Part shown: positions 2,971 to 10,885 of the stretch, piece by piece
Layout: each line of letters opens with the position of its first letter
Numbering within the stretch: position 1 is the stretch's first letter
Source of the DNA: a virus
Lineage: Duplodnaviria; Heunggongvirae; Uroviricota; Caudoviricetes
Reading direction: 5' to 3' (one strand)
DNA: 13,908 nucleotides
Virus record (IMG/VR): IMGVR_UViG_3300031999_000011
Position numbers and translations under genes: made by a program
Notes under the pieces: generated by a model
What the model was told of the DNA's origin: nothing
The model's database searches: none
What the model saw: the letters and a program-made list of their open reading frames with translations, nothing else

Positions 2971-3330
2971 ATGATAAATGTTATGTTACCAATTTCAGAA
3001 TTCAATCCTATAACCATGACAGGTCGTATGTTAATTTTTTGCCCTGCATATCCAGAAGGGCATGAAATGCGAATGCGAATTGTTGATGCAAGTTTTGTAA
3101 AATTTACAGATGGAGTCACACATTTTGTTCCATTAGTTGAGTTGGAACTACAACCTGAAGAAACAATATATCAAAGAAACGGATATGCAGATAGAGATGA
3201 GTATTTGACATATTTAAGTGAAGAATTTGATATTGATCTAGATATTGTTGAAACAATGGCTGATATATTGGGTCCAAATGAAGATTTCGACGGATTATAT
3301 ACAGCACTAGAAGATGGTGAAGGACGTTAA
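2971..3330 (+). CDS. hypothetical phage protein with acidic C-terminal domain
   Basis: Likely start 2971; C-terminal NGYADRDEYL..GPNEDFDGLYTALED resembles a recurrent small phage domain of unknown function. Confidence 0.75.
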   Translation: MINVMLPISEFNPITMTGRMLIFCPAYPEGHEMRMRIVDASFVKFTDGVTHFVPLVELELQPEETIYQRNGYADRDEYLTYLSEEFDIDLDIVETMADILGPNEDFDGLYTALEDGEGR

Positions 3331-4337: not shown

Positions 4338-4784
4338 ATGAGATTATTAGAAGTTTTATGTGAAAAAATCATTAACTCAGAATTATTTGAGAACGCATTT
4401 AAGCGTCAAGAAGTTGAGAGTAGAGTTACTGATCTATCACATCCAATTATTGAGCATTTAATTAAAATATTGAAATGGAAAGATGAGTTAAATTATTATA
4501 AACATGTTGGTGATATAAATGGGCGGGTACAGCGAATACAAAAAATGTATTTAAAAGGAAACAAAAAACCAACCCAACAAGATTACTTTCAATGGCTATT
4601 TATTGATGGGTTAAAAGATGAACTCACTTTAATACGGTGGGTACGTGCACTATATAGATACCATCATTTACCTGTTTTACGATCTGATGAGGAAGTGTTT
4701 AATATAATTAAAGCTATTTTATATAAAATTAGTTTTGATTTACCACTTAATAAATATGATAATATCGAAGATTATATGAAATAA
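4338..4784 (+). CDS. hypothetical protein, tandem paralog A (weak DUF29-like IIEHLIK motif)
   Basis: 148 aa; 47 of the first 49 residues identical to the 4839 paralog. Confidence 0.85.
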   Translation: MRLLEVLCEKIINSELFENAFKRQEVESRVTDLSHPIIEHLIKILKWKDELNYYKHVGDINGRVQRIQKMYLKGNKKPTQQDYFQWLFIDGLKDELTLIRWVRALYRYHHLPVLRSDEEVFNIIKAILYKISFDLPLNKYDNIEDYMK

Positions 4785-4838: not shown

Positions 4839-5285
4839 ATGAGATTATTAGAATTATTATGTGAAAAGATTATTAATTCAGAACTTTTTGAAAATGCATT
4901 TAAAAGACAAGAAGTTGAGAGTAGAATTACTGATCTATCTCACCCAATAATTGAGCATTTAATTAAAATATTAAAATGGAAAGATGATCGTAATTATCAA
5001 AAACATATTCATGACATCAATGGTTGTATGTATAAGATTCAATCATTTAAATTAAAAAGGAACACAAAACCATCTCAACAAGATTATTATCAATGGATGG
5101 TTGTTGATGTATTACAAGATGAACTTAATGTTGAGCTCTGGATAAGAGGACTACATAGATATAATCATTTATCGGCTTTACAGTCTGATGAAGAAGTGTT
5201 TAATATCATTAAATCTATTTTGTATAAAGTTAGTTTTGATTTGCTTTTAATTAAATTTCGTAATATTGAAGATTATATGAAATAA
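4839..5285 (+). CDS. hypothetical protein, tandem paralog B
   Basis: 148 aa, 501-bp offset duplicate of 4338-4784. Confidence 0.85.
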   Translation: MRLLELLCEKIINSELFENAFKRQEVESRITDLSHPIIEHLIKILKWKDDRNYQKHIHDINGCMYKIQSFKLKRNTKPSQQDYYQWMVVDVLQDELNVELWIRGLHRYNHLSALQSDEEVFNIIKSILYKVSFDLLLIKFRNIEDYMK

Positions 5286-5347: not shown

Positions 5348-5477
5348 GGAGTGGTAGACCGCTATGGAGACGGGAGGGACTGTGTTGGTCACAGGTGTAA
5401 ATCCAGTTCGATTCTGGAGACCAAAAGAAAATCCCTTGCCTTAGGCTCGCCAGGATCATAACCTGGACGCTCCACCA
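5348..5477 (+). tRNA. tRNA-Tyr(GTA)-like gene with a 45-nt insert in the anticodon loop
   Basis: Acceptor GGAGTGG/ACGCTCC+A+CCA, anticodon stem AGGGA/TCCCT, variable arm GCC-TTA-GGC, T stem CCAGG/CCTGG with atypical loop ATCATAA. Removing 5384-5428 gives CT-GTA-AA. Confidence 0.7.
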
Positions 5478-5483
5478 AACAAC

Positions 5484-5521
5484 GACGCCTTGGTACTGGC
5501 GTCTATATAAATAGGTACCAA
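5484..5521 (+). ncRNA. H-type pseudoknot between tRNA genes
   Basis: S1 GACGCC/GGCGTC, S2 TTGGTAC/GTACCAA, connecting loop TATATAAATA. Confidence 0.65.
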
Positions 5522-5529
5522 CGATTTTT

Positions 5530-5604
5530 AGGTTAGTGTTCTAATGGTACGATGTTGGTCTCCAAAACCATGCGATAGGGATTCAAATTCTCTCTAACCT
5601 GCCA
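5530..5604 (+). tRNA. trnW: tRNA-Trp(CCA)
   Basis: AGGTTAG/CTAACCT+G+CCA; anticodon loop CT-CCA-AA; T loop TTCAAAT; weak D arm. Confidence 0.88.
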
Positions 5605-5616
5605 AAATATAAAAAT

Positions 5617-5693
5617 GCGAGTGTAGTTTAACAGGAAGAACATCAGGTTAACCACCTGAAGGCGCTGAGTCAGGGTTCAGCCATTTCGCTCCA
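5617..5693 (+). tRNA. aberrant tRNA: Gly-like body with AAC anticodon and abnormal T loop
   Basis: GCGAGTG..CGC+T+CCA; TCAGG-TT-AAC-CA-CCTGA; T arm GCTGA-GTCAGGGT-TCAGC lacks TTC. Confidence 0.6.
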
Positions 5694-5698
5694 ATTTT

Positions 5699-5766
5699 GT
5701 GGTGATAGCTCAATGGGGGAGTTTTCTATGCGTAGAAGGTCGTCGGTTCGATTCCGATTCACTACA
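5699..5766 (+). pseudogene. tRNA-like gene with the anticodon loop shrunk to 4 nt, no encoded CCA
   Basis: GTGGTGA/TCACTAC, D stem GCTC/GAGT, TTCTA-TGCG-TAGAA, T arm GTCGG-TTCGATT-CCGAT. Confidence 0.65.
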
Positions 5767-5777
5767 AATTAATTTAT

Positions 5778-5856
5778 GTCCCTATAGTTTAGTCAGGCCT
5801 AGAACAACGCCCTTTCACGGCGGGAACGCGGGGTTCAAATCCCCCTAGGGACACCA
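5778..5856 (+). tRNA. trnE: tRNA-Glu(TTC)
   Basis: GTCCCTA/TAGGGAC+A+CCA; CT-TTC-AC loop; TTCAAAT T loop. Confidence 0.93.
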
Positions 5857-5938
5857 AATGTTAACCTCAGTATAGTTAGTTGAGGTTAAATATTCACACA
5901 TGCTGGGCAACCCCCAGAATTGATAGTGGAGCCAGTAC

Positions 5939-6136
5939 GGTGAATTGCTGGTAGCAATTGTTTGATACTATGAAAGCAACGTTAGATGAACTGAAGTTCC
6001 TATAAAAACTGCGCGGATCAATATCGGGCGCTCCCGACGGGTTTGGACTATATCTAATGATGTGATAACTATAGCATGAGGATCCCTGGTGGTCTTCAGA
6101 ATGCGGTTTCGTAGTTGGAAAGCAAACAATTTCACC
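5939..6136 (+). ncRNA. about 200-nt multi-stem ncRNA candidate
   Basis: Pairings GGTGAA/TTCACC, AATTGTTTG/CAAACAATT, ACTATG/CGTAGT, AAACTGCG/TGCGGTTT plus three local hairpins; GC-richer than flanks; no ORF. Confidence 0.6.
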
Positions 6137-6252
6137 ATAAATTTATGAATATAGTTGATCTATTTATTGATTTACTATATTATATTGAATAAGTGATGTT
6201 TGTTGTCGAAATGGATTTTGACATGATAGGGATTGTCAAATTAAATGGATAT

Positions 6253-6329
6253 GAAACGTGTTGCGTAGAGAATAAGTTACTTAAACTTGAAATTAAAATA
6301 AACTCATTTTCAATTTTATCTCATGTTTC
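6253..6329 (+). ncRNA. UUGCGUA/UACUU scaffold element, copy 1
   Basis: P1 GAAACGTG/CATGTTTC; TTGCGTA; P2 GAGAATAAG/CTCATTTTC; TTACTT; cargo contains CT-TGA-AA; 10-nt linker AATTTTATCT. Confidence 0.8.
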
Positions 6330-6380
6330 TTTTTATAAATTCCGATCTATTGTTTGTAAACGATAGATTATACATGTTTT

Positions 6381-6475
6381 GAAAACCTTGTTGCGTAGAT
6401 ATCGAGCTACTTATAACTGCTAATTGGATGACCTTCGGGTCAGTATTCTCGTGTCGTTCTTATCTCAAGGTTTTC
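6381..6475 (+). ncRNA. UUGCGUA/UACUU scaffold element, copy 2
   Basis: P1 GAAAACCTTG/CAAGGTTTTC; P2 GATATCGAG/CTCGTGTC; CTACTT; cargo CT-GCT-AA plus UUCG hairpin; linker GTTCTTATCT. Confidence 0.85.
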
Positions 6476-6493
6476 ATTTTAATTTTTAAGATT

Positions 6494-6934
6494 ATGTTAA
6501 TTAAACAAATAAAAGCTGATATTACATTAGCAAGAAAAGAACACGACAAGTTTAAAGTAGCCCTATTAACTACCTTACTTTCAGATATTCAAATGATTGG
6601 TAAGAACGCGTTACGTGAATCTACTGATTCTGAAGCAACAGGAATTGTTAAAAGATTCATTAAAGGAATTGACGATACTATTGCGTTGTTGAATATTTCA
6701 ACCGAACTTGAAGTAATATCTAATAAATTAAGTCAAGAAAAAGAAATTTTGAGTAAATATTTACCAACTCAATTAGATAATGAAGAGTTATATATTGTAA
6801 TAAATAATGCTATTAATAGTGGCGTTTGTAATACATTGCCATTAATAATGAAATTTTTAAAAGATATGTATCCCGGTCAGTATGACGGTGCAATGGCAAG
6901 TAAAATTGCAAAAGAATTGTTGTTAGTAGCATGA
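6494..6934 (+). CDS. yqeY: GatB/YqeY domain protein
   Basis: Start 6494 (the upstream ATG lies inside RNA copy 2); patterns IKADITLARKEHDK, EKEILSKYLPTQLDNEEL and GQYDGAMASKIAK are typical of YqeY. Confidence 0.88.
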   Translation: MLIKQIKADITLARKEHDKFKVALLTTLLSDIQMIGKNALRESTDSEATGIVKRFIKGIDDTIALLNISTELEVISNKLSQEKEILSKYLPTQLDNEELYIVINNAINSGVCNTLPLIMKFLKDMYPGQYDGAMASKIAKELLLVA

Positions 6935-7053
6935 TTAGTTACACTGAACCAGAAAAAGTTGCAGCATTAAAAGCAAAATACTCATTGGTGTGGGCAGAGT
7001 TTTATGTTAAAGGTGTTACCGCTGCAAAGGTGTTAAAAGATTTGTTTATATGA
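6931..7053 (+). CDS. small hypothetical protein (40 aa)
   Basis: ATGA overlaps with both neighbours; MISYTEPEKVAALKAKYSLVW... Confidence 0.65.
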   Translation: MISYTEPEKVAALKAKYSLVWAEFYVKGVTAAKVLKDLFI

Positions 7054-7268
7054 GTGATATTACAGCGGATTTGTTAGCCACACCAAGATTATTAGTTACT
7101 CGAAATGATGGGTCAAGTAAACCTACTTATTTTGAGATAATGTTAAAAGAAGTTGCACCAAGTGGTTTGTACATGAGGTATCAAACAGTAGGTGCAAGCA
7201 ACAGCCTATGGACTGAAATCGATACATATAAATTGATTGAAGTGTTATGGGAGAATCAGTTGCAATAA
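7050..7268 (+). CDS. hypothetical protein
   Basis: 72-aa ORF, translationally coupled to the upstream ORF. Confidence 0.75.
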   Translation: MSDITADLLATPRLLVTRNDGSSKPTYFEIMLKEVAPSGLYMRYQTVGASNSLWTEIDTYKLIEVLWENQLQ

Positions 7269-7288
7269 ATAAGCAAAGAAATTATAAT
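7260..7288 (+). promoter_or_regulatory. sigma70-type promoter directly before RNA copy 3
   Basis: TTGCAA-N17-TATAAT; copy 3 starts at 7302. Confidence 0.8.
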
Positions 7289-7301
7289 ATATTATAATTT
7301 A

Positions 7302-7460
7302 TTGATAGTTACGTTGCGTAGAGAACAGATACTTCATACCGAAAGCAGATTGTCAGGGGTTCGATTCCCTTCTACCTTCCCTTACAAGAAGGTAGTAGCT
7401 CAGTTGGTAGAGCATCCGCCATAAAAAAGACTGTTTTCGTTTTTAACTCGTAGCTATCAA
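7302..7460 (+). ncRNA. UUGCGUA/UACUU scaffold element, copy 3, carrying a circularly permuted tRNA body
   Basis: P1 TTGATAGTTACG/CGTAGCTATCAA; P2 GAGAACAG/CTGTTTTC; ATACTT; tRNA 3' half (7345-7379) precedes 5' half (7389-7419); linker GTTTTTAACT. Confidence 0.85.
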
Positions 7461-7485
7461 CAAATTATAAAATAAAAAATAAAAG

Positions 7486-7514
7486 TTGCAAAGTTTTAAA
7501 AAAGCATTTATAAT
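7486..7514 (+). promoter_or_regulatory. sigma70-type promoter upstream of RNA copies 4-6
   Basis: TTGCAA-N17-TATAAT with an A-tract upstream; no ORF follows for about 1 kb. Confidence 0.85.
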
Positions 7515-7634
7515 ATGTTTAAGTTTAAAGAATTCAAGACTACTACTCCTTGAATCGGTTAGTTATATGATGTTGGGTTATATAACTAACCACCTCTTGA
7601 TACACTATTTTACATAGTAGGTAAGGGTTGATAT

Positions 7635-7733
7635 ATTAAATTGTTAACATTTCTGTTGCGTTTGTGTCTGTTACTTCTATTGGCTGAAACAACACAGATA
7701 CAGTTTTTAACTCAGAAGTGTTAACAATTTAAT
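7635..7733 (+). ncRNA. scaffold element, copy 4 (core variant UUGCGUU)
   Basis: 21-bp P1; P2 TGTGTCTG/CAGATACA; TTACTT; cargo CT-GAA-AC; linker GTTTTTAACT. Confidence 0.85.
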
Positions 7734-7757
7734 TTATTATAAATAAAAAGAATAAAT

Positions 7758-7865
7758 TAAGTTATATTGTTGATATCTCTGTTGCGTAGAGTGCCCGTTA
7801 CTTCAATGCTATGAAAAATATACGGTAGCTCGATTTTTCCTCAGAGATATCAATAATATAACTTA
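7758..7865 (+). ncRNA. scaffold element, copy 5
   Basis: 24-bp P1; P2 GAGTGCCCG/CGGTAGCTC; TTACTT; cargo CT-ATG-AA; linker GATTTTTCCT. Confidence 0.85.
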
Positions 7866-7978
7866 TATTAATAATACATATGTTGCGTAGAGATCCGTTA
7901 CTTCAAAACATCTGACTTAAAATCTGACACTAATAGTCGGTTTTCATTTTTTTCTCATATGTATTATTAATATAAGTT
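7860..7978 (+). ncRNA. scaffold element, copy 6
   Basis: 23-bp P1; P2 GAGATCCG/CGGTTTTC; TTACTT; cargo TCTGA-CT-TAA-AA-TCTGA; linker ATTTTTTTCT. Confidence 0.85.
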
Positions 7979-7989
7979 TTGAAAGATTT

Positions 7990-8284
7990 TAGTCATCCCC
8001 TTGGCTGATCCGACCTAGTATATGTTTTATGCATTACGTTTGCTAGGTCACCCTATTTAACGAACATAGATACTCTTTATCGGGTATTATGTAACCGGAG
8101 AAACACTATTAGTTTCTCTCGATCTGCTGTATGATAAATCTCCCTTTAGCATACGGCAGATCAATTTAACACTTACTCCATATCTGTATCCGCTTATGGC
8201 GTTGTGTAACGGAAAGGCTATAACAGCTTTCCAGATCTGCTGTATAGTCATGTTTTATTCATTTTTGGATTATACAGCAGGTCA
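7990..8284 (+). repeat. three tandem double-hairpin units (about 110-nt period)
   Basis: Main stems GACCTAGTA/TGCTAGGTC (8012-8049), GATCTGCTGTATG/CATACGGCAGATC (8121-8162), GATCTGCTGTATA/TATACAGCAGGTC (8234-8283), each preceded by a short hairpin. Confidence 0.7.
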
Positions 8285-8321
8285 CTTTTATGATATAATC
8301 CTTAGTCAAAGTGATATTATT

Positions 8322-8383
8322 AAGCCCTAATTTAAAGTTATATATTATAACTACCACGTTGTGGAGTAATTAGGGTTTTTTTT
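8322..8383 (+). terminator. branched hairpin plus T-tract, probable intrinsic terminator of the ncRNA block
   Basis: AAGCCCTAATT/AATTAGGGTTT enclosing two small hairpins; the 3' strand runs into a T8 tract. Confidence 0.6.
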
Positions 8384-8474
8384 CATAATGGTATAATTAT
8401 GTTGTTGAATAATGTTTAACAACATAATTACGTTTGTAAAAATGCATATATACATAAAGGTATAAAAGTTTATT

Positions 8475-8565
8475 GGAAAAGTCCCATAATGGTAGTGGAG
8501 CAGATTGCTAATCTGTCGGTCGGTGATGAATTGGCTTCTGGGTTCAAGTCCCAGCTTTTCCGCCA
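8475..8565 (+). tRNA. trnS: tRNA-Ser(GCT)
   Basis: GGAAAAG/CTTTTCC+G+CCA; TT-GCT-AA loop; long variable arm. Confidence 0.92.
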
Positions 8566-8589
8566 AAAATAAGTTATAGGAGTATTAAC

Positions 8590-8796
8590 ATGAACGGTCC
8601 TGGTAAATATGATAATATATGTACCGTAGCTAGAGTGGCAGCAGACGCTGATTGTGCTATAGTTATTATAATTAATGGGAATCATGGATCTGGATTTTCA
8701 GTACAATGTACAGAAGGTTTAGTTTTAGATATTCCAAGTATATTAGAACACGTAATTAAAGATATGCGTAGTTCAATTAATATATTAGTGAATTAA
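8590..8796 (+). CDS. hypothetical protein
   Basis: AGGAG RBS; 68 aa. Confidence 0.8.
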   Translation: MNGPGKYDNICTVARVAADADCAIVIIINGNHGSGFSVQCTEGLVLDIPSILEHVIKDMRSSINILVN

Positions 8797-9030: not shown

Positions 9031-9498
9031 ATGGCTAATGGTGAACCAAAACAAGTTATTGTGATAAGAAATGACCTCAATATGAGGCGTGGAAAACAAA
9101 TAGCTCAGGGTGCTCACGCATCATTAAAAGCGATTTTAAATCTTGGACAAATGTTTCGTGATTATAGCGATATTAATGGTAACTTGATTGATATTCATTA
9201 TAATATTACTTTATTTAAAGAACGAAAGCAATGGAGTGGTGAACCCGATATAAATCATCAAGCAGTAATTGAATGGTTAGAAGGTCGATTTACTAAAATT
9301 TGTGTTCAAGTTAGTTCAGAAGATGAATTATTAAATATTTATAATAATGCAGTTGATGCAGGTATTAAATGTAGAGCACTCATTGAAGATGCCGGTTTAA
9401 CTGAATTTGGTGGTGTTAAAACATTAACTTGTTGTGCTATTGGACCTGCGTATCCAGAAGATGTAGATAAGATAACAAGCCATTTAAAGCTTTTATGA
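9031..9498 (+). CDS. pth2: peptidyl-tRNA hydrolase type 2 (Pth2)
   Basis: Motifs KQVIVIRNDLNMRRGKQIAQGAHAS, KICVQV, DAGLTEF, TCCAIGP, DKITSHLKLL. Confidence 0.95.
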   Translation: MANGEPKQVIVIRNDLNMRRGKQIAQGAHASLKAILNLGQMFRDYSDINGNLIDIHYNITLFKERKQWSGEPDINHQAVIEWLEGRFTKICVQVSSEDELLNIYNNAVDAGIKCRALIEDAGLTEFGGVKTLTCCAIGPAYPEDVDKITSHLKLL

Positions 9499-10129: not shown

Positions 10130-10885
10130 ATGGATTTTCTAGATAGAATACCTTATACTTATTTAGTTAAATGTATACCAACTAATCAGTGTTATTACGG
10201 TAGTAGAACTGCTAAAGGTTGTGATCCGAGTGAATTATGGATTAGGTATTTTACATCATCAAAGGTGATACAACGATTAATTGTTGAGTATGGTGTAGAA
10301 TCATTTCAATATTCAATTAGGAAAATATTTAAATCTAAATTATTAGCTGTTAAATGGGAAATGACGGTATTGCGTAGATTAAAAACTGCTCAATCTGATA
10401 AATGGATTAACCTTCATAATGGAGGTAATAAATTTATACATATATTACACAGTCAAAAAACCCGAGATAAAATATCTAGAATAGTTAAAAATAGGTCACG
10501 TGATATAGTTAATAAAACAGCTAATACGTTAAAGAGAAAACATGCAAGTGGTGAGTTAGTATCAGTGTTTAAAACTAACAACCCTCAACACACAATAAGT
10601 GGTAAGCAAAAACAGAAAGCAGTATTTAATAAAATTAAACATCAACAAGGTATTAAAAATTCACAGTTTGGTACAATGTGGATTAACAATGGTGTAAATA
10701 ATCAAAAAAGACAAAAATGTGAATGTATTCCAGCTGGATGGAATCAAGGTAGAATATTATCTCGAAATACACATAAGTGGATAAATGATGGTATTAAAAG
10801 TACAAAGTTATTAATATTTAACCCAATACCTGATGGTTGGCAATTAGGTAGGGTAAATAAAACCAAGTCTGGACCGGTCGGCTAA
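10130..10885 (+). CDS. GIY-YIG (Seg-like) free-standing homing endonuclease
   Basis: N-terminal PYTYL..YYGSR variant of the GIY-YIG motif, conserved E and N, basic linker, two C-terminal WIN(N/D)G...IP.GW..GR repeats; sits among tRNAs like T4 segB. Confidence 0.85.
   Translation: MDFLDRIPYTYLVKCIPTNQCYYGSRTAKGCDPSELWIRYFTSSKVIQRLIVEYGVESFQYSIRKIFKSKLLAVKWEMTVLRRLKTAQSDKWINLHNGGNKFIHILHSQKTRDKISRIVKNRSRDIVNKTANTLKRKHASGELVSVFKTNNPQHTISGKQKQKAVFNKIKHQQGIKNSQFGTMWINNGVNNQKRQKCECIPAGWNQGRILSRNTHKWINDGIKSTKLLIFNPIPDGWQLGRVNKTKSGPVG

What the first reader, a model, noticed from the sequence alone, without database searches (positions are those of the whole stretch)
6253..7978. Six-copy structured RNA scaffold family (UUGCGUA / UACUU) with variable cargo
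Seen: six copies (6253, 6381, 7302, 7635, 7758, 7860) share one architecture: P1 of 8-24 bp always closed by G-C; TTGCGT(A/T); P2 of 8-9 bp always closed by G-C; NTACTT; cargo of 18-96 nt; P2'; an exactly 10-nt T-rich linker ending CT; P1'. Stem sequences differ between copies while pairing is kept, and loop sequences and lengths are fixed, which is the signature of selection on RNA structure. Strong promoters at 7260 and 7486 feed the ORF-free array. I recognise no named family. Inference: a cassette system in which a constant scaffold (protein-binding site, processing signal or small ribozyme) presents interchangeable cargos; the long P1 stems could be RNase III-type release sites.
Basis: partly seen in the sequence, partly recalled or inferred. 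Interest (0 to 1): 0.95.

Follow-up and report, generated by a model that had tools for sequence, protein, structure and literature searches.

The report
Six phage Y RNA-like genes
The six repeats are a family of small phage RNAs of the Y RNA type: a constant handle that in other phages lies beside the gene for the ring-shaped Ro60 protein, joined to a variable module, one of which mimics tRNA. It is a new branch of a known system, not a new kind of RNA.

Summary
Six copies on the + strand share P1, UUGCGU(A/U), P2, N-UACUU, a variable insert, P2', a 10-nt U-rich linker and P1'.

- **Support for the structure:** the motif pair occurs 6 times against 0.02 expected. Both stems covary strongly across 45 relatives.
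- **A named kind does fit:** copy 3 (7322-7440) matches Rfam YrlA below threshold (37.5 bits, E 4e-7). It carries a permuted tRNA-like domain.
- **Link to Ro60:** a model built from the copies finds arrays of 1-8 such RNAs in other phages. In 12 loci they lie next to a Ro60/TROVE gene on the same strand. These include Caulobacter phage CcrColossus, Rhizobium phage RHph_Y65, Xanthomonas phage Olaya and crAss001. TROVE was present in 9 of 10 viral contigs with the RNA and in 0 of 5 control contigs.
- **Best reading:** six paralogous Y RNA-like genes, each a Ro60-binding handle plus an interchangeable effector module.
- **Open points:** no TROVE gene was found within about 91 kb around this window, and no RNA data exist. 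Binding and expression are therefore inferred.
- **Not supported:** the ribozyme, circularisation and tRNA-splicing readings.

Earlier notes of this scan report Ro60-like proteins with handle-bearing RNAs on other DNA. The Felix O1 handle that I checked is a different one.

The parts
6253..6329 (+). Copy 1: Y RNA-like gene with a short A-rich insert containing UUGAAAU. P1 is 8 bp.
   Evidence: Parsed. R1 55.8 bits, R2 55.0 bits. A strain variant in L139 keeps P1 and P2 through compensatory changes.
6380..6476 (+). Copy 2: Y RNA-like gene whose insert is a hairpin with a UUCG loop. P1 is 11 bp.
   Evidence: 76.4 bits; fold z -2.9. Compensatory changes in P1 are seen in strain variant L139.
7288..7474 (+). 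Copy 3: YrlA-like Y RNA (core 7302-7460). The handle carries a permuted tRNA-like domain.
   Evidence: Rfam YrlA RF02553 at 7322-7440, 37.5 bits, E 4e-7, model 1-114. R1 82.6 bits. Fold z -4.4 with three hairpins.
7345..7419 (+). tRNA-like domain of copy 3. It holds the anticodon-stem 3' strand, a variable loop, the T arm (7355-7371), a 7-bp acceptor stem closed by a 10-nt loop (7372-7395), the D arm (7398-7413) and the anticodon-stem 5' strand. There is no anticodon loop.
   Evidence: Read from the sequence, the alignment to the YrlA consensus and the fold.
7629..7739 (+). Copy 4: Y RNA-like gene with a short UACUUC...GAAA...A-rich loop. J1 is UUGCGUU.
   Evidence: 78.7 bits; the minimum-energy fold equals the proposed structure, z -3.5.
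7758..7865 (+). Copy 5: Y RNA-like gene with a short UACUUC...UGAAAAA loop.
   Evidence: 73 bits; the minimum-energy fold equals the proposed structure, z -4.5.
7860..7978 (+). Copy 6: Y RNA-like gene whose insert holds two AUCUGAC repeats. Its P1 overlaps the end of copy 5 by 6 nt.
   Evidence: (80.1 bits).
7260..7288 (+). Promoter-like site (TTGCAA, 17 nt, TATAAT) just upstream of copy 3. A start here would fall at the foot of P1.
   Evidence: This is a consensus match only; such sites are not enriched over shuffles.
7486..7514 (+). Promoter-like site (TTGCAA, 17 nt, TATAAT) upstream of a structured leader of about 110 nt and of copies 4-6.
   Evidence: consensus match only.

Best explanation
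The six copies are six paralogous genes for Y RNA-like small RNAs, a phage branch of the bacterial YrlA/YrlB (Yrl) RNAs. Each RNA pairs its 5' and 3' ends (P1). Above P1 sits a conserved handle made of G|UUGCGUAG on the 5' strand and GNYUNUNWCU|C on the 3' strand, then a covarying second stem (P2) and the junction N-UACUUC. Beyond the handle each RNA carries a different module: a tRNA look-alike in copy 3, a short UACUUC...GAAA...A-rich loop in copies 1, 4 and 5, and other hairpins in copies 2 and 6.

Shown here: the architecture, the covariation, the YrlA likeness of copy 3, and the fact that this same RNA family lies directly beside Ro60/TROVE genes in many other phages.

Inferred: a Ro60 ring protein binds the handle at the top of P1 and in J1. 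Each variable module then tethers or gates Ro60 towards a different partner or substrate, as Y RNA tethers Rsr to PNPase in Deinococcus and Salmonella. In this phage the particle would serve RNA and tRNA quality control or repair during infection, alongside the phage's tRNA genes, CCA-adding enzyme, PTH2 and RNA ligase. The source of Ro60 for this particular phage (its own distant gene or the host's Rsr) is not known.
For: 1. Six copies against 0.02 expected by chance; only these six score with the model in the window.
2. On 32 family members, 94.7% of cells are paired and 19 of 20 pairs change on both sides. The covariation score is 0.67, against 0.09-0.12 when the 3' partners are slid and 0.14 in shuffles. 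The alignment is model-fitted. A strain variant at 87% identity shows compensatory changes in P1 and P2 of copies 1 and 2.
3. Copy 3 matches Rfam YrlA over the whole model (37.5 bits, E 4e-7), with T arm, closed acceptor and D arm in YrlA order.
4. Models R1 and R2 find 1-8 copies per contig in other viruses.
5. TROVE is present in 9 of 10 viral contigs that hold the RNA and in 0 of 5 large control contigs.
6. RNA and TROVE gene are neighbours on the same strand in L068, L008, L019, L098, L114, L100, L164 and L052. The same holds in CcrColossus (8 copies), RHph_Y65 (4), Olaya (2) and crAss001.
7. The neighbouring proteins have TROVE plus the Ro60-type vWA domain.
8. TROVE-adjacent tRNA-like members also score only 30-50 bits against YrlA, the same range as copy 3.
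9. J1 grades into the published Ro60 motif GNCGAAN0-1G / CGAA: UGCGUAG here, GGCGUAG in CcrColossus, UGCGAAA in RHph_Y65 (motif from PMC4201824 and PMC12135203).
10. J1 position 2 covaries with the linker's last base: U.U 38, U-A 4, G-C 3, and G-C in the CcrColossus and Olaya copies. With an invariant G-C next to it, this gives a bulged helix like the animal Ro60 site.
Against: 1. No TROVE or DUF2828 gene lies in the window, or within about 48 kb upstream and 43 kb downstream on contigs of the same phage. The defining gene linkage is therefore not met at this locus.
2. The Rfam YrlA gathering score is not reached.
3. J1 differs from GNCGAA at 2 of 7 positions. The Rfam alignment instead places the GNCGAA positions on P2 and UACUU, so which element contacts Ro60 is unresolved.
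4. No binding or expression data exist for any member of this family.
5. Some TROVE-bearing phages (phiLo, HGTV-1, Kabachok, Vibrio TDDLMA) have no hit with the model, so the handle is not universal to phage Ro60.
Confidence: 0.85

Rival explanations
1. The scaffold is the binding site or processing signal of a different protein, not Ro60. One candidate is the tRNA-binding YqeY-like protein encoded between copies 2 and 3; others are tRNA-maturation enzymes. On this view the linkage to TROVE genes in other phages only reflects shared residence in tRNA and RNA-repair gene clusters.
For: No Ro60 gene was found in about 91 kb around the window. A YqeY gene lies next to the arrays in the window (6494-6934), in L058 and, across the terminal repeat, in G002. 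All arrays are embedded among tRNA genes.
Against: In 12 independent loci the RNAs abut the TROVE gene itself, often within 2-300 nt and on the same strand. This includes small phages of 43-47 kb that have no YqeY. YqeY is far from the array in G001 and G003. Copy 3 and its relatives match YrlA, a proven Rsr partner.
Confidence: 0.08
2. The units are self-processing or processing cassettes: a small ribozyme, RNase III release sites, or a circularisation or splicing system that matures permuted tRNA pieces into functional tRNAs.
For: P1 stems are long (23-27 bp) in copies 3-6. Copy 3 has a permuted tRNA order like the permuted tRNA genes of some algae and archaea. The phage encodes an RNA ligase, a CCA-adding enzyme and other tRNA enzymes.
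Against: No ribozyme family matches even at E<=10. Five of the six inserts are not tRNA-like. Copy 3 has no anticodon loop; its anticodon stem runs into the handle. P1 is only about 8-12 bp in most relatives. The conserved single-stranded motifs are kept in TROVE-linked arrays of unrelated phages, which fits a protein site better than a catalytic core.
Confidence: 0.04
3. The copies are selfish or neutral repeats, such as duplicated intergenic hairpins or terminator-like palindromes, with no RNA function.
For: The region is AT-rich and intergenic, and the copies lie in tandem.
Against: Stem sequences differ while pairing is kept, and the loops are conserved across unrelated phages of Caulobacter, Rhizobium, Xanthomonas and Bacteroides. 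All copies are on the strand of the neighbouring genes.
Confidence: 0.01

Closest known systems
Bacterial YrlA / YrlB Y RNAs bound by Rsr (Ro60) in Salmonella, Mycobacterium smegmatis and Deinococcus (Chen et al. 2014, PMC4201824; Wang et al. 2018, bioRxiv 312249; Rfam RF02553)
   Same: The RNAs are modular: paired 5'/3' ends, a conserved 5'-strand motif with a CG-A core next to a bulge, and a variable effector module. One paralogue per array has a permuted tRNA-like domain (T arm, closed acceptor, D arm). Copy 3 has a 7-bp acceptor stem, as M. smegmatis YrlA does. Several paralogues occur per genome. In relatives the genes lie beside the Ro60 gene on the same strand.
   Different: The score is below the Rfam threshold (37.5 against 69 bits). 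The handle has an extra covarying stem (P2) between the CG-A motif and the UACUU junction, plus a fixed U-rich linker of about 10 nt. The motif is UGCGUAG, not GNCGAAG. There are six paralogues here and up to eight elsewhere, against the two to four described. No Ro60 gene is nearby in this phage.
Thermus phage phiLo Ro60 with Yrl1 and Yrl2 (PMC12135203)
   Same: These are phage-encoded Y-like RNAs with a stem-bulge-stem layout and a CGAA-type motif in the bulge, encoded upstream of a phage Ro60. Binding and a PNPase complex were shown there in vitro.
   Different: My model finds no member in phiLo, so the phiLo RNAs have another handle. phiLo has two RNAs and no reported tRNA-like module.
Animal Y RNAs (Ro60 site: bulged helix with GGUCCGA on the 5' strand)
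   Same: Same position and logic of the protein site: the top of the terminal stem, on the 5' strand, next to a bulge. The sequences partly resemble each other (GUUGCGUAG against GGUCCGAAG; the animal sequence is from my own memory).
   Different: The sequences are unrelated overall and the loops differ. Animal Y RNAs are pol III transcripts that bind La.
Putative Y RNAs of Listeria phage CKA15 (PMC12282133)
   Same: Three very highly transcribed non-coding regions lie within 2 kb upstream of an Rsr-like gene, in the same direction. This is the gene order seen for this family's arrays.
   Different: I did not test whether they share this handle. Their identity as Y RNAs is itself only proposed.
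Handle-bearing RNAs next to DUF2828 (Ro60-like) genes of Felix O1-type phages
   Same: Same concept: a tRNA-cluster array of small RNAs with one shared handle, one of them tRNA-like, beside a Ro60-like protein gene.
   Different: The handle is different: R2 finds nothing in Felix O1, and the repeated motif there reads ACAGAAGACC...UUACAGCAA. The partner belongs to family DUF2828, not TROVE.

Membership tests
Ro60-associated Y RNAs (bacterial and phage Yrl RNAs) | Terminal stem formed by the 5' and 3' ends, then an internal bulge, a second stem and a large variable loop | tested here: met
   Parsed in all six copies. P1 and P2 covary in 32-45 members. The minimum-energy fold reproduces the structure in copies 4 and 5.
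Ro60-associated Y RNAs (bacterial and phage Yrl RNAs) | Conserved Ro60-binding motif on the 5' strand (GNCGAAN0-1G in bacteria; CGAA in phiLo; GGUCCGA in animals) | tested here: inconclusive
   The window has UGCGUAG (5 of 7 positions). Family members have GGCGUAG (CcrColossus) and UGCGAAA, which contains CGAA exactly (RHph_Y65). The Rfam alignment puts the motif positions elsewhere.
Ro60-associated Y RNAs (bacterial and phage Yrl RNAs) | Encoded within about 2 kb of a Ro60/TROVE gene on the same strand | tested here: not met
   Not met for this window: no TROVE from about -48 kb to +43 kb. It is met for the family in 12 other loci. In complete jumbo contigs G001-G003 the TROVE gene is 60-240 kb from the RNAs.
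Ro60-associated Y RNAs (bacterial and phage Yrl RNAs) | Physical binding by Ro60/Rsr | not testable with these tools
   Needs a gel-shift assay or RNA immunoprecipitation; no RNA-protein predictor is offered.
Ro60-associated Y RNAs (bacterial and phage Yrl RNAs) | At least one paralogue carries a tRNA-like domain | tested here: met
   Copy 3 has the T arm, a closed 7-bp acceptor stem and the D arm.
Rfam YrlA (RF02553) | Score at or above the gathering threshold of 69 bits | tested here: not met
   37.5 bits, E 4e-7. TROVE-adjacent relatives also score only 30-50 bits.
Small self-cleaving ribozymes (hammerhead, twister, twister-sister, pistol, hatchet, HDV-like) | Match to the family's covariance model | tested here: not met
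   No such family appears even at E<=10 in 5400-8700.
Circularly permuted tRNA genes (Cyanidioschyzon type) | The two halves restore a complete tRNA with an anticodon loop once the ends are joined | tested here: not met
   Copy 3 has no anticodon loop; its anticodon stem continues into the conserved handle. Five of the six inserts have no tRNA parts.
DUF2828-linked handle RNAs of Felix O1-type phages | Shares the handle of that family and its DUF2828 partner | tested here: not met
   R2 finds nothing in Felix O1, where the handle motif differs. No DUF2828 is found in L058's contig or in this phage's held DNA.

The most novel reading that the evidence does not exclude
This phage carries an 'orphan' toolkit of six Y RNAs without a Ro60 gene of its own. 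The RNAs would capture or gate the host's Rsr-PNPase machinery, or recruit another partner such as the adjacent YqeY-like tRNA-binding protein. Each insert would redirect that machinery to a different target during infection. More broadly, the handle would be a portable adaptor that phages graft onto tRNA bodies in every topology: around a permuted tRNA here, around a whole tRNA in L058, and in place of the anticodon loop in crAss001.
Probability: 0.15. Interest if true: 0.75.

Novelty: new variant of a known kind. Interest (0 to 1): 0.5.

Why it matters
Ro60-Y RNA particles are known from animals, some bacteria and a few phages, but what the bacterial and phage particles do is still unclear.

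- **A usable definition.** This result defines a handle (G|UUGCGUAG, P2, N-UACUUC, U-rich linker, CUC) that Rfam does not capture. The handle marks arrays of up to eight partner RNAs beside Ro60 genes in cultured, tractable phages: CcrColossus, RHph_Y65, Olaya and crAss001.
- **Testable questions.** Those phages make it possible to ask which insert recruits which factor, and why phages place these RNAs inside tRNA gene clusters.
- **Annotation.** It also flags a pitfall: the tRNA-like inserts can be called as odd tRNA genes.
- **For this window.** The practical message is that the finding is a member of a known kind of system and not a new class of RNA.

Tried and rejected
- **Finding this phage elsewhere.** Megablast of 5400-8700 against cultured phages gave no match. 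An exact 39-mer scan of IMG/VR gave none. No whole genome is held for the window, and the metagenome record behind L135 cannot be searched whole. Close relatives sought through the CCA-adding enzyme in IMG/VR gave none. A tblastx of the related contigs against this phage's DNA found only distant YqeY and DUF3307 matches to L058.
- **Ro60 in this phage.** I walked contigs of the same phage with ten look-ups. No TROVE gene was seen from about -48 kb to +43 kb. About 36 kb at the far end of the 120-kb contig could not be read.
- **The 469-aa ORF about 24 kb upstream of the window (L194:6187-7596) as a hidden Ro60.** There was no Pfam, PHROG, BLAST or Atlas support.
- **DUF2828 as an alternative partner.** None was found in L058's contig or in the held DNA of this phage.
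- **RNA evidence.** No RNA holder was listed for the stretch; the only holders listed were sediment-metagenome runs, which the tool guesses are DNA.
- **Cultured phages with no model hit.** R2 found nothing in Felix O1, phiLo, HGTV-1, Brevundimonas Kabachok or Vibrio TDDLMA, and one weak, unlinked hit in RsoM2USA.
- **Bacterial genomes.** The pattern scan gave 48 loci, mostly chance. Only L171, L164 and weakly L184 were confirmed by the model.
- **Promoters.** Consensus sites are not enriched over shuffles.
- **YqeY as a linked partner.** It is adjacent in 3 of 5 large phages only.
- **Supplements of Chen et al. 2014.** They are not held, so I could not see which 22 phages those authors listed.
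- **Readings rejected.** Ribozyme, circularisation and permuted-tRNA-gene readings are rejected as explained under the rival explanations.
- **Skipped step.** I did not hand in a 402-column structure string to re-count the extra 16:390 pair. I counted it in a script instead.
Full report
**1. What is in the sequence.** Reading 6000-8300 and parsing it by script confirms six units on the + strand: 6253-6329, 6380-6476, 7288-7474, 7629-7739, 7758-7865 and 7860-7978. That layout is P1 closed by G-C, TTGCGTA (TTGCGTT in copy 4), P2 of 8-9 bp, N-TACTT, a variable insert, P2', a 10-nt T-rich linker ending CT, and P1'. The motif pair occurs 6 times against 0.02 expected. A covariance model of the six (R1) scores them at 56-83 bits and nothing else in the window above 17 bits.

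**2. Selection on structure.** I aligned 32 members from this window and other viral contigs to the model. In that alignment 94.7% of cells form pairs and 19 of 20 pairs change on both sides. The covariation score is 0.67, against about 0.1 when the 3' partners are slid and 0.14 in shuffles. The alignment is fitted to the model, so these numbers lean towards it. An independent check comes from a strain variant of the same phage (L139, 87% identical here), which shows several compensatory double changes in P1 and P2 of copies 1 and 2.

**3. A named kind does fit.** Rfam at its gathering thresholds reports only tRNAs. A permissive scan gives one non-trivial hit: copy 3, at 7322-7440, against YrlA (RF02553), 37.5 bits, E 4e-7, over the full model. 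The insert of copy 3 is a permuted tRNA body. It has a T arm (7355-7371), a 7-bp acceptor stem closed by a 10-nt loop (7372-7395) and a D arm (7398-7413). There is no anticodon loop; the anticodon stem runs into the handle.

This is the architecture of bacterial Y RNAs. They have a stem formed by the two ends that holds the Ro60 (Rsr) site, plus an effector module that in YrlA mimics tRNA (PMC4201824; bioRxiv 312249). Phage Ro60 with Y-like RNAs is also on record. YrlA-like sequences were reported in 22 phages (PMC4201824). TROVE proteins occur in a subset of jumbo phages (PMC7824862). Thermus phage phiLo Ro60 binds two upstream Yrl RNAs and PNPase in vitro (PMC12135203).

**4. The test: do relatives sit with Ro60?** A pattern scan of IMG/VR followed by R1 and the improved model R2 found true members in 11 viral contigs, usually as arrays. 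Copy numbers were L008 5, L058 5, L026 6, L114 4, L068 4, L098 3 and L019 3.

A TROVE open frame is present in 9 of 10 of those contigs. It is present in 0 of 5 large control contigs that only matched the pattern by chance.

In L068, L008, L019, L098, L114, L100 and L052, and in a MAG contig L164, the RNAs abut the TROVE gene on the same strand. In L068 the gap is 2 nt. The proteins carry TROVE plus the Ro60-type vWA domain. In three complete jumbo contigs of 345-360 kb the TROVE gene is 60-240 kb from the RNAs.

Among cultured phages that have a TROVE gene (103 records), R2 finds the following:
- Eight tandem members directly upstream of CcrColossus gp139.
- Four directly upstream of the RHph_Y65 TROVE gene.
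- Two upstream of the Xanthomonas phage Olaya gene.
- One just downstream of crAss001 gp96.

The tRNA-like members of these Ro60-linked arrays also reach only 30-50 bits against Rfam YrlA. The sub-threshold score of copy 3 is therefore typical of the phage branch.

**5. Where Ro60 probably binds.** The family consensus from 45 members is G|YUGCGUAGR, a variable P2, G-N-UACUUC, the insert, P2', G-N-Y-U-N-U-(N)-W-C-U|C.

J1 grades into the published motif. It reads UGCGUAG here, GGCGUAG in CcrColossus and Olaya, and UGCGAAA (containing CGAA exactly) in RHph_Y65. The published forms are GNCGAAN0-1G and CGAA.

J1 position 2 covaries with the last linker base: U.U 38, U-A 4, G-C 3. The pair is G-C in the CcrColossus and Olaya copies. 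It is followed by an invariant G-C. The top of P1 is thus a helix with one bulged U, which recalls the bulged helix that animal Ro60 recognises (PMC12135203, citing Green 1998 and Stein 2005).

The Rfam alignment instead lays the GNCGAA positions on the end of P2 and on UACUU. The contact site therefore remains an inference.

**6. Inserts.** Three classes recur across phages.
- A permuted tRNA-like domain, as in copy 3.
- A short loop of the form UACUUC, 4-8 nt, GAAA, then an A-rich tail, as in copies 1, 4 and 5. This class occurs in most of the arrays I read and is the counterpart of a YrlB-type partner.
- Assorted hairpins, as in copies 2 and 6.

**7. This phage.** The window is a tRNA-rich region with 9 Rfam tRNA hits, a YqeY-like gene at 6494-6934, PTH2 at 9031-9498 and a Seg-like endonuclease at 10130-10885. 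It comes from an uncultured phage seen in sediment metagenomes.

Walking its contigs showed SIR2, a CCA-adding enzyme, NADAR and others downstream. Upstream lie a type I-F Cas set, an RNA ligase and an Acb2/Tad1-like gene. No TROVE or DUF2828 gene appeared between about -48 kb and +43 kb.

Given the jumbo contigs where the gene is far away, this does not show that the phage lacks Ro60. It does leave the local partner unidentified. No RNA runs could be listed.

**8. Mechanism proposed.**
- **Shown:** the architecture, the selection on it, the YrlA likeness and the family-wide linkage to Ro60 genes.
- **Inferred:** Ro60 binds the handle. Each insert tethers or gates Ro60 towards a different factor or substrate, as in the Rsr-Y RNA-PNPase machine. 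In a phage rich in tRNA genes and tRNA-repair enzymes, the particles would serve RNA or tRNA surveillance, repair or turnover.
- **Copy 3:** its 7-bp acceptor stem resembles M. smegmatis YrlA, which RNase P cleaves and which then receives CCA (PMC4201824). With a phage CCA-adding enzyme nearby, such processing is possible but untested.

**9. Rivals.**
- Another protein partner, for example YqeY, which is adjacent to arrays in 3 of 5 large phages, cannot be excluded for this phage. It does not explain the tight TROVE linkage in small phages that lack YqeY.
- Ribozyme, circularisation and permuted-tRNA readings find no support.

**10. Novelty.** Four things appear to be undescribed in the papers I could search:
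- This specific handle.
- Arrays of five to eight paralogues.
- Their placement inside phage tRNA clusters away from the Ro60 gene.
- The alternative topologies noted in passing.

I could not see the supplementary lists of Chen et al. 2014. Some tRNA-like members in phages such as CcrColossus may therefore already have been listed there.

Earlier AI notes of this scan describe Ro60-like proteins with handle-bearing RNA arrays on many other genomes. I checked one lead. Felix O1 has a DUF2828 protein but a different handle, and R2 gives no hit there.

Noticed in passing
L198 5902-6490 (Bacteroides phage crAss001, MH675552.1, just downstream of TROVE gp96): Unit 0 (5902-5995) has the standard topology. 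Units 1 (6084-6227) and 2 (6339-6480) are the circular permutation of it: an open tRNA acceptor and D arm, then P2', the linker, a P1 hairpin closed by a tetraloop, J1, P2, UACUUC, and then the T arm and acceptor 3' strand. The Ro60-type handle thus replaces the anticodon loop. Rfam tRNA scores unit 1 at 46.6 bits with an 82-nt insert. ARAGORN calls nothing.
   Followed up: partly
L202 2712-3916 (Caulobacter phage CcrColossus, JX100810.1): Eight tandem family members fill the 1.2-kb gap upstream of TROVE gp139, and at least five have tRNA-like inserts. The record's 'tRNA-Gln' (L202 3128-3195) lies inside one member (3118-3294) and gets no Rfam tRNA hit at E<=0.01, so it is probably a miscalled Y-like RNA.
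   Followed up: partly
L058 1996-2124 (-), IMG/VR contig of 183 kb: One family member carries a complete, non-permuted tRNA-like insert with a CAU anticodon loop (Rfam tRNA 56.9 bits at 2025-2098). Part of the UACUUC junction serves as the acceptor 5' strand.
   Followed up: partly
window 7516-7628: Between the second promoter-like site and copy 4 lies a structured leader with a perfect 15-bp hairpin (7557-7591) and two smaller hairpins (fold z -2.45). It matches no Rfam family and is not a family member.
   Followed up: partly
window 7990-8470: An ORF-free stretch after copy 6 holds repeated GATCTGCTGTAT-type hairpins, up to tRNA-Ser at 8475. It is not hit by R1 or R2.
   Followed up: no
window 5698-5767: A tRNA-like gene whose anticodon loop has only 4 nt (Rfam tRNA 41.9 bits; ARAGORN calls it 'tRNA-???'). 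It cannot decode and may be another tRNA mimic.
   Followed up: no
L193 8069-11528 and the gap to 13502 (same phage, about 9-12 kb upstream of the window): The phage carries a type I-F CRISPR-Cas effector set: a 351-aa Csy1-position gene, Csy2, Csy3 and a Csy4-like gene. These are followed by an ORF-free stretch of about 1.8 kb that may be the array. An RNA ligase (PF09414) and an Acb2/Tad1-like gene lie further upstream.
   Followed up: partly
window 6494-6934; L058 about 732-1151; G002 2075-2497: A YqeY-like (GatB-tail, tRNA-binding type) gene lies next to the Y-like RNA arrays in three large phages, on the same strand. It is absent from the small TROVE phages. This could be coincidence within translation-related clusters or a real partner.
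   Followed up: partly
window 10130-10885: The Seg/GIY-YIG-like homing endonuclease gene between tRNA-Ala and tRNA-Met is present in this window and in the ENA contig. It is missing from the JGI variant contig (L136), so it is a presence/absence polymorphism.
   Followed up: no
window 4338-4784 and 4839-5285: Two tandem paralogous 148-aa ORFs of unknown function (PHROG 37306) lie just upstream of the tRNA cluster.
   Followed up: no
L207 2391-3267 (Salmonella phage Felix O1, downstream of its DUF2828 gene): Small elements between the tRNA genes share a different handle (ACAGAAGACC...UUACAGCAA...GGUCUGGU). This is a separate RNA family paired with a Ro60-like DUF2828 protein, as earlier notes of this scan say.
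   Followed up: partly
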